A stretch of DNA of 64,000 nucleotides from Amoebophrya sp. A120 (GCA_905178155.1 CAJINV010000002.1:6180476-6244475); one strand, 5' to 3'. Positions 1 through 61,560 are shown, counted from the first letter of the stretch. Made by a program: numbers and translations. Notes: generated by a model not told the origin, from the sequence alone.

Positions 1-1048
1 CGCAGCAAGTGGCGCATCCTCTTCTTCGTCGATCCTTCTTTCAAGCTCACGATCATGGTACACGTAGAAGCTTCTCCGTAGAAGCATCGTGACAACAACA
101 TCCAGACGCGGCCGGTCCCCGTTTCTCAAGGCCGGCTATCAAATGTAAAAATGTCTGGGTCTGGAAGAATACAGACTTGTGATGCGCATTTCAGGACACA
201 GAAAAATTTCTCATGCATAGGTAGCGAAAGCTGCTCAGTTTCCGCCACCAAAATGGGGGATTTGTCATGCGGATTCGGCATTGCGAAAGTTTCTCGAAAA
301 CTGCGATGCTAGAGCTCCCATACCAGACTTTCTGTGTCATGCCAAAACAGCATGACTCTTCCAGACCCAGACATTTTTGCATTTGATACCGGCGCACCAT
401 CGGCGATTTCGTCGGTGATCGCAAATCTGGTTGCGACCCCCTTCGCGGCCGTTTCGAGTATTTTCTTCATGTAGTACTCGAAAACAAGGCCGTAATCCAC
501 GCCGATCTGGGACCTCGCTATCTTGATGGAATGGAAGTAGTCCGCATTTCGGCAATCCAAAATTTGGATGTTCTCCTGGCCCAAGAAATGCATGACTTTC
601 TTCCGAAGAACCTCAGGCAAGGAGCGTCGCTGGTTCGTCAGATTCCGCGTCGCCAGAACACACCAAATGTTGACCTGGTATAATTGAAGACGCTGTTCGC
701 AAAGAACATCTGTCGAGTTTGCAAAGCAATGGGAATTCAAATCTCCAAGTAAGATGCAACAGAGTCACTTGGAAAGAAGAGAAAGATAAACTACTGATTC
801 GGAAAAAAAATATCTAGGACCTGACTCGCCAGCATTTTGTTGGCCGTTCGCTTGTCGAGATTCTGCAAGCGCCCTTCGAGCGATTCCCGGTCCAGGTCGG
901 CAATTTTCTGGACCCACTTTTCGTAGCTCCCTTTGTACCGGAGAAGAACGTTTTCAGCGGTGATTTTTGTTGGCTGGTTCGCCAGCTGCGGCTCCGCAGG
1001 TCCGTTTCCGGCAGGGACGGCTGCGGATGAAGAGGAGGCGGACGACAT
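1..1048 (-). CDS. Unknown-family protein, tandem paralog 1 (3' end outside the window); GT-AG intron 675-820 and introner 137-388
   Basis: The spliced product MSSASSSS...KMLASQ|VNIWCVLATRN...GAP|ALRNGDRPRLDVVVTMLL aligns with the paralogs at 3206-4568 and 5340-6692. Confidence 0.85.
137..388. mobile_element. Introner/MITE family A, 252 bp, TSD CCGGC
   Basis: Ends tatcaaatgtaaaaatgtctgggtctggaag / cttccagacccagacatttttgcatttgata; ccggc at 132-136 and 389-393. Paralogs lack the insertion. Confidence 0.95.
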
Positions 1049-1963
1049 GCTGTGCGTTTGTTCTTCGAAAAATTTACTTTTTCTTCTATCGGCTTTGAAT
1101 ATGACAAACACAAATGAATGCTTTCTTTGGGGTACGAATACGATATTTGAAATGCCTCTAGTGAAAAAACATTAGATCAAAACGGAAGATGGAAGTCTGT
1201 CGGAAAGGAGTGACGTGTCGGTCGAGGGCTCCCTCTTCCAGGGACTAAGTCATCGATCAGCTAGATTCGAACGAACAAGTACAATCGAGGAAGGGGATCT
1301 CTCATCCCGTTGACCATTTGCACTGTCACAACCTAGCACCAGCAGAGTGAATGCTTCACTCCTTTTGCGTCGAACAAAAATGCGCCTCTTTTTTTGCTTT
1401 TTCGACTCGCTCTCGATTGCAGCCAAGCATCAACAGACTTGTAAATACGCTACGGCAATCAAAGAATTTGTGTTGCAGCAAAAACTGCGACCATTTTGTG
1501 TTTTTCGGAAGAGGTAGAAAAAGGACTTGATTCTCATTGTAGTACATGCTTTATTCCTTTCGCTTCATAATCGTGCTCCCACCAACTAGCGGGAAAACTT
1601 TGGAATTAAAAAATGAGGTCTAGATCGGCATATCGTATTCACGGTGCGCGTTTCCATTTGCCTAAGCCTATTCGAATTCAGGGGAACGCAATAAGATATG
1701 CAGTAATTTGCTCCTGCTGCGCGCGACTTTTGGTACATGATCTGTCGTCATCCAACCAGTCTCACTACGATTCCAGCTTGCCGCACGACCGGGTACTTAG
1801 GTGCAGTTAGCTCTTCTGGTGCTACATGCTCAAATATCCTCGAAGTGCCCCACGTGCTCGATTTCGTCTGATGGCAGTTCTTTCCATACTGCTGCGAGTG
1901 CATGTGCTGCAAGCAAGCGATTTATTAGCTGGACTCGTGGATATTGCGCTAGTTGATATTGCC

Positions 1964-2570
1964 TCACTCTTCCTCCTCCTCGACCTCTGCCTCCTCTTCC
2001 TCCTCACCGGAAGGCTCGTCTTCGCCATAAAAAAAATAACCGACCCGCATGGTGAAAGGCAGTGGGTCACCGTTGGAATACCAGTCGCGGCCCTGCTCGC
2101 GGAACCGCAATTTGAACCCGTCCGTTTCGCTCCTGTGCATCAATTGATCAAGCAGCCCGCCGCGGGGGAGTGCAGGATGGAGCGCCTTCATCTGAGCCGG
2201 ATTCAACGGCACGTGCTCACCGCTAGGTAGTTTCGGCGCTTCTGCCATCATCTCTGGTGTGACTACTATCTCGGCAACACCCTTAGCAGCAGACTTTCCT
2301 AGACGATCTACCAGATAATCCGCAACCTCCTTGATCCCGTTCTCTACGGTGTCGGTGAACGATTTCCAGGCGCTACCTCTACTATATCCCAATACTTCCC
2401 CTACGCCCGCAGTTTGGCCGCCTGTTCCCTGCACAGCATGGCGCGCAACGGTGTTGGCATCTTTATCAGCATGGCCAAAGTTCCCCTGGCTGAGGTCAAT
2501 TCGAAGCGGAAGGGAAAGATCTCCAAAAATTCTGCGGGCCAGCTGCGGATGAAGAGGAGGCGGAGGACAT
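1964..2570 (-). pseudogene. Paralog 2 of the unknown family, internally deleted and frameshifted
   Basis: ATG at 2570 gives MSSASSSSAAGP, then jumps out of frame into GDLSLPLRIDLSQGNFGHAD. About 760 bp present in paralog 3 is missing. Confidence 0.75.
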
Positions 2571-58601: not shown

Positions 58602-59761
58602 GGCTCGTCTCGTCGGGGGATCAGTTACAATAGGTTTGAACTATGCCATCGTGGTGGAAAGAGACTGGTTGTACATGGGTAGCACAAGTCGAGGAATTAT
58701 ACATGTTGGGGATGGGGAAGCCATGTTACTCTATTCGACGAGTTAGAAAAATTGTTTGGTAAGCCGGCGTAGTTTAACAACTACGTCATTAGATATGCGA
58801 AACAAACCCGAAATACTATACCTCCGGCAATAATCTCCCGATCTAGTACTTTTTCACAGACCTAAGAGGATATTACACCTGCCTTGTTCCAGCACTCGGA
58901 CCACCCCCTGTCGATTTGAGTAGACCAGAGCGAATTAGACTCGCAGCCGTCACAAGTCGCAAGAACAGCGAGAAGACCCAGAAGAAAAAGGACACAGTAA
59001 GAGTGAGATCACAAAAAAATCGACAGACAGGAAACAAATCACCTCCACGCACTCAAATAAACAGTTCTAGCTCTTTTAACGGCATCGCCTCGATCTCAAA
59101 AATCAGTCGTGTGCCAGTTGATCGCGTTCTCCTGCTCTCGCCACGAAGTATGCCAGCTGTAGTGGAGTAGATCTTCTCCAAGTCAATGAACTTTTAGCTT
59201 TTGCACGATGAAATTGAGAGTAGATAGTGTACGTGTACTAACAAGCGGATCCACATATAGGAAAAGAAATGCTGCCAAACGAAAAGTCACAACAGATCAT
59301 CTTCACACAGACACACACACGAAACTTTCACGATCGAACTGATTGACCACGACTTTTTGGCAAACACGACGTGCATCAGTTGCCCGTTTCTTCTCAGAGT
59401 CAGACCATGCACGCCAAAGCGAAAGCGAAGTCTCGCCGTGATGGTTGATTTAGATTTATTTGTTTTTACTATGATATGAACTCGCACAACTTCAAAACAG
59501 ACATCATAATCATTTTTGGGAGGACAAGAAATAAAAGGCTTTTTAGGCCTTACTACATCTTCATCGTCAAGAAGTTGTGGATCACGAAAAGATCCCTCCG
59601 TCGTGTCGCAACACAGGGCGCTCGTCAGTTCTTGTGCCAGAAAAAGCCATTTCTCAACGTGGTCACTGCGCCGAGCACGCGAACAATCTGTATCTGAATC
59701 ACAACACCTTTTCCAGAAGAAAGACCCCGCCAGAACTACTCTGCAGCAGCTTTCTTATCCT

Positions 59762-61560
59762 CTACTCGATGTCGAAGGCCGGTTTCCCTAGCTTCGAGGA
59801 GGCACTGGCCCCGCCGGTCAACCTCCCCGCCTCTGCCGCTTCGACGGATTTTTTCATCTTCTTCAATTTCGGCGAAGCGACGTGCTCGGGAGCCCCGCCG
59901 CCGCCGATGAAATCGCCGCCGACGCCGAAAATTCCCGGGGACAGATTTTCGTCGTCGTCCTCTTCGGAACCAGAATTGTCCAACCCCTTGTCCTATGCAT
60001 TGCAAATATGTCTGGGTCTGGAAGATGTCAAGCTGTTTTTGCATAACACAGAAGGTCTGGCATGGAAGCCCTAGCATCACAGATTTCGAGAAGGTTCTGC
60101 AATGCCTAATCCGCATGACAAATCCCCCACTATGGTGACAAGAAGTGGGCATCTTTTGCTGCCTATGCATGAGAGATTTGTGTGCGTTGTGAAATGCGCA
60201 TCACAACTTCTACTTCACATCCTTCGAGACCCAGACATATTTGCATTTGATATGTCCTCCTCCGCGAACTGGCCATCGAACCACTCAATGCAATCCCGAT
60301 TCTCGATCGGGTGCTCAAAGTCCACCCGGCGCAGCATGTCCGTCTCGAAATCGATGGCATCAAAAAGAAAAATCGCCCCTCCCCATATCGAAAACGAAAC
60401 CTGTGACGCAGTATTTGAGTACACAGATCGCATTTGTCTTGCTGGAGAGGACTGCAGACCCATGTCAAGCCTGAGTAGAGAGGCTTTGACTTAGGCGCTT
60501 AGCATGAAAAGGGTCCGTGATGTTGGCTCAACAGCATGACAGACAAACCGGCTCCATAATGGGACGGAAGCTGCTGCCCTTGTCTTCTTGCAACACAAAC
60601 GTGACTTGTGACCTCAAATCAGCAACACAAATTTTCGAAAACCTACCTCTTCATCAATATGGGGAGGGGGGATTTTTCCTTGCGATAGATGGTGGCCGGT
60701 CGCTTCATCTCCTCGTCCCAGGCCAGTTGGAGCTCATCATCCTTGAACAAATGCGTCAAGTACCAGCCGCACCGGTAAAACTGCTTTTTGTTGTACAGTG
60801 CGATCATCACGAGCGCGCCGTTGTCCAGTTTCGCGGTTTCCGGCACCAGCGTCATGTCCGGCGCAATGCCCTCCATCACAATCTTCCGCTTTCCGCACTT
60901 CGGGAACGGACCGCACTCGACCTCATCGAGTAACTGCTCCTGCTTCTGCAAGCAGGCGGAGGCGAGCAGATCCGCGATGGTCTTCTCCGTTTTGGAGAAA
61001 GGGTTTTTACTCGTCTTTTTACTCTCCGATTTGGACTTCTTCATCGACGCTTTAATATTCGCGGTAGATGTTGTTGAACTCGGCTCTTTACAAGTCGAGG
61101 TGGACTGCTGGTGCTCTGTAGTAGTGGCAGTAAAACTCGCGGCTTTTGACTGCATTTTCTTCATGGAAGTCGTACTGGAAGCTGCTGTCGTCGTTGTATC
61201 TTGTTTTTTCATCGCCGTGGTTTTTTTCGAGGTGTTTGAGGATTTGGAGCTTTTCGACCTTTTGCTGTTTTTGCTCGCGGAGGACTTGTTGTCGTCGAAG
61301 TTTTCGTCGTAATCTTCAGAATCCATGTCGTCCTCGTCCTCTCCCGAATCGTCCTGCGTGCCGTTCTCGCTGCAGGACTCGGCATCGAAAATGTCCTCCT
61401 GGACCTCCCAGGGCGGGATAAATTTCAACTGCAACTCCAGCGTTTTGGGAAGCGCCTCCATGACCTCGAACGTCACTTCGAGCTTCAGCGGCCCGGTCGC
61501 CGGCGCGTCCACCGCGGTCTCCGGGATCCAGTTCGCGCGCCGAAACTCGATGGCAGCCAT
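59762..61560 (-). CDS. ASF1: Divergent ASF1-like histone chaperone with a long loop insertion and two introners
   Basis: GPLKLEVTFEVMEALPKTLE...EQLLDEVECGP...APDMTLVP...LYNKKQFYRCGWYL...MLRRVDFEHP...IEW parallels ASF1 FEITFEC / DQVLDSVLVGP / EFIRVGYY / INW. Confidence 0.8.
59994..60252. mobile_element. Introner family A, 259 bp, TSD TGTCC
   Basis: Reverse-complement relative of the 137-388 copy. Join AEED|KGLDN. Confidence 0.95.
60358..60687. mobile_element. Introner family B, 330 bp, TSD GATGG
   Basis: Reverse-complement relative of the 14035 copy. Join PATI|DFETD. Confidence 0.93.

What the first reader, a model, noticed from the sequence alone, without database searches (positions are those of the whole stretch)
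137..60687. Transposon-derived non-GT-AG intron system: 22 TAT...ATA inverted-repeat elements with 5-bp TSDs inside conserved genes
Seen: 22 insertions of 150-450 bp with TIRs and a 5-bp flanking direct repeat (16 perfect, 3 with one mismatch, 3 with two). They interrupt Vip1, MAP2K, ASF1, SET, TSP1, SAP-LOTUS and an orphan gene. In every case, deleting the element plus one TSD copy restores the frame, and often a conserved motif. For example, Vip1 comes to exactly 3021 codons after 12 removals. Sliding the junction through the TSD never yields GT...AG; two copies could give GA...AG, and two could give GT-AG with a one-codon gain. Known: non-canonical introner elements with inverted and direct repeats are reported in Amoebophrya (Farhat et al. 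2021), and to my knowledge how they are removed is unresolved. Inference: the host removes these elements by a route defined by the element ends (a structure-guided or relaxed spliceosome, an unknown RNA endonuclease/ligase, or programmed DNA excision).
Basis: partly seen in the sequence, partly recalled or inferred. Interest (0 to 1): 0.95.

Follow-up and report, generated by a model that had tools for sequence, protein, structure and literature searches.

The report
Amoebophrya hairpin introns without GT-AG
Twenty-two small hairpin-shaped transposon copies sit inside genes of the marine parasite Amoebophrya A120, and six of them are seen cleanly missing from assemblies of a likely RNA sequencing run although they lack normal intron ends; this is a published system, and its removal is likely the work of a relaxed spliceosome.

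Summary
There are 22 elements of 150-450 bp with terminal inverted repeats and a 5-bp duplication (16 perfect, 3 with one mismatch, 3 with two), and no GT-AG at any slide position. Removing the element plus one duplication restores the frames. Contigs of a probable RNA run skip six elements by exactly the predicted length, while contigs of another run keep them. The window is Amoebophrya sp. A120: my spliced ASF1 equals the public A120 protein. These are the introner elements of Farhat et al. 2021, already annotated as introns, so the system is known. How they are removed is still open. What this work adds is polarity. The gene-sense 5' end starts TA in 127 of 127 oriented copies, against 12 deviants at the 3' end. 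The cut likely lies one base before TAT, which copies the host's own GTAT donors without the G. That favours a relaxed spliceosome over DNA excision or a symmetric hairpin nuclease. An AG preference at the acceptor was weak after controls. Earlier notes of this scan report similar elements in Prorocentrum.

The parts
137..388 (-). Element, 252 bp, perfect 5-bp duplication, in an orphan gene of a tandem paralog cluster
   Evidence: two paralogs in the window lack it and align without a gap only for removal of element + 5 bp
14035..14357 (-).
16798..17076 (-). Element, 279 bp, perfect duplication, protein kinase gene
18856..19118 (-). Element, 263 bp, perfect duplication, inside the kinase domain
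   Evidence: Pfam Pkinase split across the two flanking exons
20033..20239 (-). Element, 207 bp, perfect duplication, kinase gene
20511..20762 (-). Element, 252 bp, perfect duplication, deviant 3' end, kinase gene
22123..22276 (-). Degenerate element, 154 bp, duplication mismatched at positions 2 and 5, deviant 3' end; would fix the cut position if reads were mapped
37175..37485 (-).
39096..39545 (-). Degenerate element, 450 bp, duplication mismatched at positions 2 and 5, deviant 3' end; would fix the cut position if reads were mapped
42255..42447 (-). Element, 193 bp, duplication mismatched at position 1, SAP-like gene
   Evidence: spanned without a gap by one X3 contig
49623..50047 (-). Element, 425 bp, composite relative of 20511, Vip1
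   Evidence: one of four skipped in X1 record 2
50101..50380 (-). Element, 280 bp, Vip1
   Evidence: one of four skipped in X1 record 2
50688..50969 (-). Element, 282 bp, Vip1; same family as 50101, opposite orientation
   Evidence: one of four skipped in X1 record 2
51035..51297 (-). Element, 263 bp, duplication mismatched at position 4, Vip1; transcript keeps the upstream copy through position 4
   Evidence: X1 record 2 resumes at 51298 with no other letter
53165..53417 (-). Element, 253 bp, Vip1
   Evidence: one of two skipped in X1 record 3
53478..53730 (-). Element, 253 bp, Vip1; same family as 56044, opposite orientation
   Evidence: one of two skipped in X1 record 3
56044..56298 (-). 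Element, 255 bp, Vip1, in a poorly conserved linker
   Evidence: homolog profile cannot fix the removed length
56518..56667 (-). Element, 150 bp, Vip1 kinase domain
   Evidence: element + 5 bp scores best of four lengths against homologs
56715..56984 (-). Element, 270 bp, duplication mismatched at positions 2-3, deviant 3' end, inside a conserved Vip1 motif
   Evidence: the residue conserved in 7 of 7 homologs shown needs the upstream copy through position 3; X1 record 4 begins at 56985
57864..58198 (-). Element, 335 bp, duplication mismatched at position 4, deviant 3' end, splits PPIP5K2_N
   Evidence: Pfam positions 3-46 and 48-88 on the two exons, the split codon being 47
59994..60252 (-). 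Element, 259 bp, ASF1
   Evidence: absent from public protein P0102; X1 record 5 leaves the genome at 59988
60358..60687 (-). Element, 330 bp, deviant 3' end, ASF1
   Evidence: absent from public protein P0102
57353..57506 (-). Ordinary GT-AG intron of Vip1 with a GTAT donor and no terminal hairpin (control)
   Evidence: skipped in X1 record 4
55392..55524 (-). Ordinary GT-AG intron of Vip1 with a GTAT donor and no terminal hairpin (control)
46436..58601 (-). Vip1/PPIP5K gene, 3021 codons, 10 elements and 2 GT-AG introns
59762..61560 (-). ASF1 gene, 399 aa after removal of 2 elements
   Evidence: identical to P0102, named Amoebophrya sp. A120 by its source

Best explanation
These are the introner elements of Amoebophrya sp. 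A120: short non-coding copies with inverted ends and a 5-bp duplication, likely inserted by a transposase encoded elsewhere, and likely removed from the RNA with one duplication copy by a relaxed spliceosome that is predicted to cut one base before the TAT. Shown: the anatomy, the families in both orientations, frame restoration, exact skipping of six elements in contigs of a probable RNA run, and identity with the public A120 ASF1 protein. Inferred: the intron reads N-U-A-U at its 5' end, a copy of the host's own G-U-A-U donors with the first base free; the predicted end-to-end hairpin brings the 3' end close and the acceptor is placed four bases past the closing ATA with little or no sequence demand. 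Because both element ends begin TAT, either orientation offers the donor, and because the cut falls inside the duplication, the original coding sequence is restored, so insertion is nearly free.
For: Removal: X1 record 2 has 411 nt between its pieces and 411 are predicted after removing four elements + 5 bp each; record 3 has 55 and 55 are predicted for two. X1 also skips an ordinary GT-AG intron, so it behaves as spliced RNA. Element + 5 bp is the best of four lengths at 3 of 4 Vip1 junctions against homologs and against in-window paralogs. In loci of a second assembly (JACKZZ01 contigs), 182 of 223 pairs defined by inverted repeat alone have a perfect 5-bp duplication, and element + 5 bp is the best frame class in 101 of 105 well-scoring cases (189 of all 255 scored). 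Cut position: piece ends allow only a cut after duplication position 4 or 5 if one rule holds. All nine most common A120 non-canonical end classes in Table S4 of PMC7789003 have T at +2; 9 of 22 window elements fall in those classes when cut after position 4, and 0 or 1 at the other five positions. Polarity: the gene-sense 5' end begins TA in 127 of 127 oriented copies while 12 deviate at the 3' end (window 0 v 5, loci 0 v 7; p = 0.0005). Duplication mismatches fall from 19 at positions 1-2 to 7 at positions 4-5 (p = 0.03). 5 of 6 ordinary donors examined in the window begin GTAT. A120 keeps 83 of 89 spliceosomal proteins and U2, U4, U5, U6, with U1 undetected (PMC7789003 section 10); the Kv strain has U1 and mainly GT-AG introns (PMC12005148 passages). 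In Fritillaria, transposon-derived non-GT-AG introns need the U2-type spliceosome (bioRxiv 2025.08.15.670264 passages).
Against: No lariat, branch point or inhibitor data were seen; the spliceosome step is inference. The cut after position 4 versus 5 was not resolved by reads, and Table S4 classes may partly reflect aligner preferences; that paper calls the border unknown. No base is conserved at the acceptor. AG at duplication positions 3-4 looked enriched (20 of 127 against 6.9%, p = 0.0005) but weakened under controls: phase-controlled 16 v 9.2 (p = 0.026, one of four positions tested), orientation-free 38 v 29.5 (p = 0.07), against its mirror p = 0.09-0.22, and 2 of 30 with a stop-codon-only orientation rule. 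The hairpin is strong (z below -3 in 21 of 22) and would have to be opened for snRNA pairing. X1's RNA status is the tool's guess, contig gaps fix sums and not single junctions, and hairpins with direct repeats can cause reverse-transcriptase jumps. The two raw-read runs laid did not cover the exons. No autonomous partner was found.
Confidence: 0.6

Rival explanations
1. A non-spliceosomal or second machinery recognises the terminal hairpin and cuts at fixed distances from it, as proposed for Euglena nonconventional introns.
For: All 22 fold end to end in prediction, with 9-30 pairs between the first and last 30 nt; four ordinary introns give 0, 0, 0 and 9. A 3' spacer of 4-5 nt resembles the 5-6 nt Euglena spacer (PMC12501133 passages). 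There is no fixed acceptor base, and U1 was undetected in A120.
Against: The 5' TA is invariant while its pairing partner at the 3' end is not (0 v 12), so sequence at the donor matters more than the closing pairs. Those pairs have low predicted probability in several copies. The Euglena CDG motif is absent at either cut position (one search counts). A polar nuclease could still explain this.
Confidence: 0.27
2. The ordinary spliceosome uses nearby GT/GC-AG sites or sites created by RNA editing.
For: Two elements can use GT-AG with one codon gained and others have in-frame GC/GT-AG pairs within 15 nt. In the second assembly 6 of 105 are GT-AG at the position-4 cut.
Against: Exact skip lengths for six elements. 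Element + 5 bp fits homologs and paralogs better than one codon more or less. Possible editing at the first or last two intron bases was reported for 3% of A120 introns (Table S5).
Confidence: 0.05
3. The elements stay in the mRNA, the cDNA gaps are reverse-transcriptase jumps across hairpins at direct repeats, and the genes are dead or are read by ribosome hopping.
For: Hairpin plus direct repeat is the known signature of template switching (recalled). Retention could not be measured, because reads from other copies swamp the elements.
Against: Exons stay stop-free over 3021 and 1655 codons with conserved motifs across junctions. Gene-oriented conservation of the 5' TA is not expected from an artefact.
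Confidence: 0.04
4. The elements are excised from DNA in a programmed way, as ciliate internal eliminated sequences are.
For: Inverted ends starting TA and precise loss of one duplication resemble such systems (recalled).
Against: X3 contigs run into element ends at the depth of the flanks (37-47) and one spans element 42255 without a gap. End conservation follows the direction of transcription. No germline/soma nuclear split is known in this organism (recalled). Contigs drop rare variants, so a stage-limited form is not excluded.
Confidence: 0.03

Closest known systems
Amoebophrya A120 introner elements (Farhat et al. 2021, PMC7789003)
   Same: Same organism by protein identity; inverted repeat starting TAT, seven freer bases, then a run of A; direct repeats (5 bp in their Figure S19 legend); repeated families; non-GT-AG ends supported there by RNA-seq; 29,850 repeated introns reported.
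   Different: Nothing in kind. The paper leaves the border 'unknown' and reports 3-5 nt repeats; here the repeat is 5 bp exactly, the ends are polar, and a cut one base before TAT is inferred. The paper calls families strain-specific; the same families occur in the JACKZZ01 contigs, whose relation to A120 I did not establish.
Fritillaria borealis non-canonical introns
   Same: Non-autonomous inverted-repeat transposons with target duplications turned into non-GT-AG introns, removed by the U2-type spliceosome (passages).
   Different: Ends there are mostly AG-AC/AG-AT with G favoured at +2 and U1 conserved; here +2 is inferred to stay U, the acceptor is free and U1 was undetected.
Euglenid nonconventional introns (PMC12501133)
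   Same: End-pairing hairpin, slidable direct repeats, proposed MITE origin, spacer between stem and 3' junction.
   Different: The CDG..CH'G code at +4 is absent here; release as circles is reported there (review PMC11282704) and untested here.
Canonical introners of algae and core dinoflagellates (PMC9860276; bioRxiv 2020.10.14.339549)
   Same: Duplication-assisted, length-neutral intron gain; some families work in both orientations.
   Different: Those recruit GY/GA-AG sites from the element or duplication; here 0 of 22 window copies can read GT-AG or GC-AG.
IS3EU/GingerRoot and Ginger2 integrase-like DNA transposons (PMC10045372)
   Same: IS3EU/GingerRoot have TA..TA ends; Ginger2 makes 4-5 bp duplications. 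PMC12130899 reports A120 introners with inverted ends and Copia/Gypsy-like ORFs.
   Different: IS3EU/GingerRoot duplicate 6 bp, not 5; no transposase was found here, so the superfamily is unassigned.

Membership tests
Amoebophrya A120 introner elements | Inverted repeats at the intron ends, able to form a hairpin | tested here: met
   folding z below -3 in 21 of 22, -2.1 in the remaining one
Amoebophrya A120 introner elements | Direct repeat of 3-5 nt at the exon/intron borders | tested here: met
   5 bp, perfect in 16 of 22
Amoebophrya A120 introner elements | Inverted repeat starts TAT, seven freer bases, then at least three A | tested here: met
   TAT in 22 of 22 at the 5' end and 16 of 22 at the 3' end; A at positions 11, 12, 13 in 17, 18, 22 of 22 (5') and 19, 19, 22 of 22 (3'); definition
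Amoebophrya A120 introner elements | Repeated in families across the genome | tested here: met
   pairs at 65-93% identity within the window; summed X3 depth of 1e4-1e5 over most element bins against about 50 on flanks (not a copy number)
Amoebophrya A120 introner elements | Removed from transcripts at non-GT-AG borders | tested here: met
   6 of the 15 elements in the stretch laid are skipped with exact summed lengths in X1 contigs; the rest were partly shown or not listed
Amoebophrya A120 introner elements | Host is strain A120 | tested here: met
   P0102, named Amoebophrya sp. A120, is identical to the spliced ASF1 model over 399 aa
MITE (non-autonomous TIR DNA transposon) | Short, inverted ends, duplication absent from empty sites | tested here: met
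   150-450 bp; empty site in two paralogs for element 137
MITE (non-autonomous TIR DNA transposon) | Cognate autonomous element with a transposase | tested here: inconclusive
   none among 5 long candidate rows (3 distinct) in 142 loci; 2 ORFs scanned had no Pfam hit; no whole genome was available
IS3EU/GingerRoot | TA..TA termini | tested here: met
IS3EU/GingerRoot | 6-bp target duplication | tested here: not met
   0 of 22 and 0 of 223 at 6 bp
U2-type spliceosomal intron | GT/GC-AG ends | tested here: not met
   0 of 22 at any of six slide positions
U2-type spliceosomal intron | Lariat formation and dependence on U2/U6/Prp8 | not testable with these tools
   needs lariat sequencing or inhibition
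Euglenid nonconventional intron | CDG at +4 to +6 pairing with CH'G near the 3' end | tested here: not met
   cut after position 4 puts T at +4 in 22 of 22; cut after position 5 puts G at +6 in 0 of 22 (one search counts; code)
Euglenid nonconventional intron | Released as full-length circles without lariat | not testable with these tools
   no raw reads of this strain were laid

The most novel reading that the evidence does not exclude
A120 runs a second splicing code on most of its introns: a U1-less spliceosome, or a dedicated machine, reads only N-U-A at the donor and measures four bases past a terminal hairpin to find an acceptor of any sequence. That code makes a TA-ended, 5-bp-duplicating transposon invisible at any exonic site in either orientation.
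Probability: 0.35. Interest if true: 0.85.

Novelty: already known. Interest (0 to 1): 0.4.

Why it matters
The elements are published and annotated, so the discovery claim falls away. The open question is real: about two thirds of A120's introns lack GT-AG and no removal mechanism is given in the papers I read. If the cut is one base before TAT, the 'no clear signature' of the original report becomes a simple rule (U at +2, A at +3), which also fits A25's reported TT starts and TTA-purine-purine ends. The rule predicts a lariat pathway, altered U1 and U2AF function, and possibly an unmethylated U6 A43, since U at +4 is favoured when that mark is low (PMC13326754 passage). Copies with mismatched duplications give a cheap way to test it with existing reads.

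Tried and rejected
No whole genome was available, so genome-wide counts, snRNA searches and a transposase search could not be run. 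Raw-read runs X10 and X11 had no depth on exons at 90% likeness and matched only short element pieces; they say nothing about junctions. Read-level junctions for elements outside 41001-61000 were not obtained. The inverted-repeat pattern had 0 matches in viral contigs. Rfam found 0 families in 41001-64000; the rest of the window was not scanned. None of the 142 loci in hand was orthologous to a window gene, so no cross-assembly empty site was found. Long elements: one candidate was three short elements in a row and two had inverted ends around sequence without a recognised ORF. An AG preference at the acceptor was proposed and then downgraded after four controls. A DNA-level target preference suggested by the 22 window copies (C at position 2, G at 4) is weak in 250 perfect duplications. 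A branch point in the closing ATA was considered; it is not required, since 6 of 22 copies alter that triplet. Protein evidence cannot separate a cut after position 4 from 5 at 22123, because both give the same residue (reading). 47 of 302 locus elements were dropped for short flanks and 150 of the 255 scored could not be oriented. Cluster members of three homologs could not be listed, so the identity of the 89% relative P0097 stays open.

Full report
Observation. A scan for inverted repeats with flanking direct repeats recovered 21 elements, and short BLAST hits outside them pointed to the 22nd at 22123-22276. They cover 6,039 bp, 9.4% of the window. The duplication is 5 bp and no other length, and a strict definition gives 15 hits against 0.07 expected. 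All lie in exons of minus-strand genes. Removing element plus 5 bp joins the long frames in 21 of 22; the other is in frame in stop-free models. No slide gives GT-AG or GC-AG; two give GA-AG and two AT-AC.

Exact length. Against a profile of Vip1 homologs, element + 5 bp beats +2, +8 and +11 at 3 of 4 junctions tested; the fourth lies in a linker and is uninformative. Pfam PPIP5K2_N positions 3-46 and 48-88 fall on the exons flanking element 57864, with the split codon as position 47. Two paralogs of the first gene lack element 137 and align without a gap only for +5, which is an empty site within the window and argues against the GT-AG reading with a codon gained.

Transcripts. Four runs were laid on 41001-61000. 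In X1, labelled RNA by guess, record 2 leaves 411 nt where removal of four elements predicts 411, and record 3 leaves 55 where removal of two predicts 55. Record 4 skips an ordinary GT-AG intron, which supports X1 being spliced RNA. That is 6 of the 15 elements in the stretch; three more show a piece ending at the expected border, and most rows were not displayed. Elements 50101 and 50688 are the same family in opposite orientations and both are skipped. X3, of unstated kind, behaves as genomic DNA: its contigs enter the elements at flank depth, and other copies pile up over them. X10 and X11 did not cover the exons. These holders may include the window's own source, so they are not independent of it.

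Identity. Vip1 homologs are led by unnamed and alveolate proteins, the best named relative of the diphthamide gene is from Amoebophrya sp. A25, and the ASF1 exon matches P0102, named Amoebophrya sp. A120, at 100%. The spliced ASF1 model equals P0102 over all 399 residues, so the public annotation already treats both elements as introns. Farhat et al. (PMC7789003; abstract, passages, sections 10, 12, 35, supplement part 3 and passages read; figures not seen) describe A120 repeats that start TAT, run seven freer bases and end in at least three A, with 29,850 repeated introns, 65% non-canonical introns, and U1 undetected. The window's ends fit that.

More copies. The inverted-repeat pattern found 143 stretches in metagenome contigs; the 80 rows listed are all JACKZZ01 contigs, and 142 loci were on hand. 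They yielded 302 elements, with best matches of 82-94% to 19 of the 22 window elements and no orthologous locus. Of 223 pairs defined without the duplication, 182 have a perfect 5-bp one. Of 255 scored, 189 prefer the +5 frame class, and 101 of the 105 with a clear coding score do. 105 could be oriented.

Where the cut falls. In one search the transcript keeps the upstream duplication through position 4 at 51035 and through position 3 at 56715, and keeps the base after the downstream copy at 53165 and 59994. With one rule, the cut is after position 4 or 5. The nine commonest A120 classes in Table S4 all have T at +2 and none starts TA; 9 of 22 elements land in them at position 4 and 0-1 at the others. 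That table may carry aligner bias, so this is support, not proof. At position 4 the intron starts N-TAT, and 5 of 6 ordinary donors checked start G-TAT (only one of the six is transcript-supported here, the rest come from frame models).

Polarity. The first two bases are TA at the gene-sense 5' end in 127 of 127 oriented copies, while 12 deviate at the 3' end (p = 0.0005); a stop-codon-only orientation rule gives 0 v 2 in 30 copies and agrees with the codon model in 15 of 15 shared cases. Mismatches in the duplication are commoner far from the inferred cut (19 v 7, p = 0.03). Codon phase is skewed (51, 32, 22; p = 0.002), making the position-4 cut phase 0 in half the cases. The nearest full-length relative is in the opposite orientation for 55 of 94 copies, so no strand-specific internal signal is needed. 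An AG excess at the acceptor appeared but did not hold up under phase, orientation-free, mirror and alternative-orientation controls; I treat it as unproven.

Mechanism. Shown: insertion with 5-bp duplication, family spread, frame-exact loss from transcript assemblies. Inferred: a relaxed spliceosome reads U+2 and A+3, and the predicted hairpin positions an acceptor with almost no sequence demand. Support from papers: spliceosome nearly complete but U1 undetected in A120; U1 present and GT-AG dominant in strain Kv (PMC12005148 passages); precedent in Fritillaria (bioRxiv 2025.08.15.670264 and PMC13326754 passages; PMC11282704 section 6). The main rival is a hairpin-measuring machine like that proposed for Euglena (PMC12501133 passages). 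DNA excision, cryptic sites and cDNA artefact fit poorly. The mobilising enzyme is unknown: TA ends recall IS3EU/GingerRoot but those duplicate 6 bp (PMC10045372 passages), and PMC12130899 (passages) reports A120 introners with inverted ends and LTR-like ORFs.

Novelty. The system is known. Searches returned no paper that resolves its removal or states the N-TA donor rule; PMC9860276 and PMC11453091 (passages) and bioRxiv 2020.10.14.339549 (passages, no mention of Amoebophrya) do not. I could not see Farhat's Figure 3 or Figures S19-S25, did not open Dataset S2 of PMC12130899, and saw nothing of the journal versions of Roy 2023 or Henriet 2019 beyond citations; any of these may already show the register. 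Two unchecked notes from this scan describe similar elements in other dinoflagellate DNA; none was indexed for this genome. Verdict: real, already known, mechanism open and now more sharply testable; interest 0.4.

Noticed in passing
window 1-6755: Tandem cluster of three or four related orphan genes sharing upstream repeats; only the first carries an element at the homologous site.
   Followed up: partly
window 23400-25200, 28900-29700, 32400-33900: GC-rich (60-67%) stretches between genes with short purine/pyrimidine runs and no clear gene; similar-looking sequence fills a 1148-bp inverted-repeat element in L077.
   Followed up: no
window 49623-50047: Composite element: 146 bp at 93% and 107 bp at 82% to element 20511 in the opposite orientation, with an extra middle part that appears to hold a short tandem duplication.
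   Followed up: partly
all elements, inverted-repeat position 13: A in 44 of 44 window ends and 204 of 210 locus ends, across otherwise different families; a candidate transposase contact.
   Followed up: no
inside most elements: A short internal motif (GCAT-G/C-ACA or its complement) recurs on both strands in 21 of 22 elements and in 0 of 4 ordinary introns; it could be a transposase site or supply branch-like sequence in either orientation.
   Followed up: partly
window 53384-53417, 50129-50183, 50267-50299: Raw RNA reads of X10 and X11, which do not match the exons, match these element pieces with consistent foreign flanks: related families may be retained in transcripts of another strain.
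   Followed up: no
L064:4024-4995 and L077:4772-5919: Elements of about 1 kb with family-type ends and 5-bp duplications around unrelated sequence; possible captured DNA or deletion derivatives of an autonomous element.
   Followed up: partly
window 7888-10899: Diphthamide synthesis gene of 1003 aa with no intron, much longer than the 302-position Pfam model; a relative at 89% identity (P0097) exists.
   Followed up: partly
whole window: All gene models built lie on the minus strand, in line with the co-oriented gene blocks reported for Amoebophrya.
   Followed up: no
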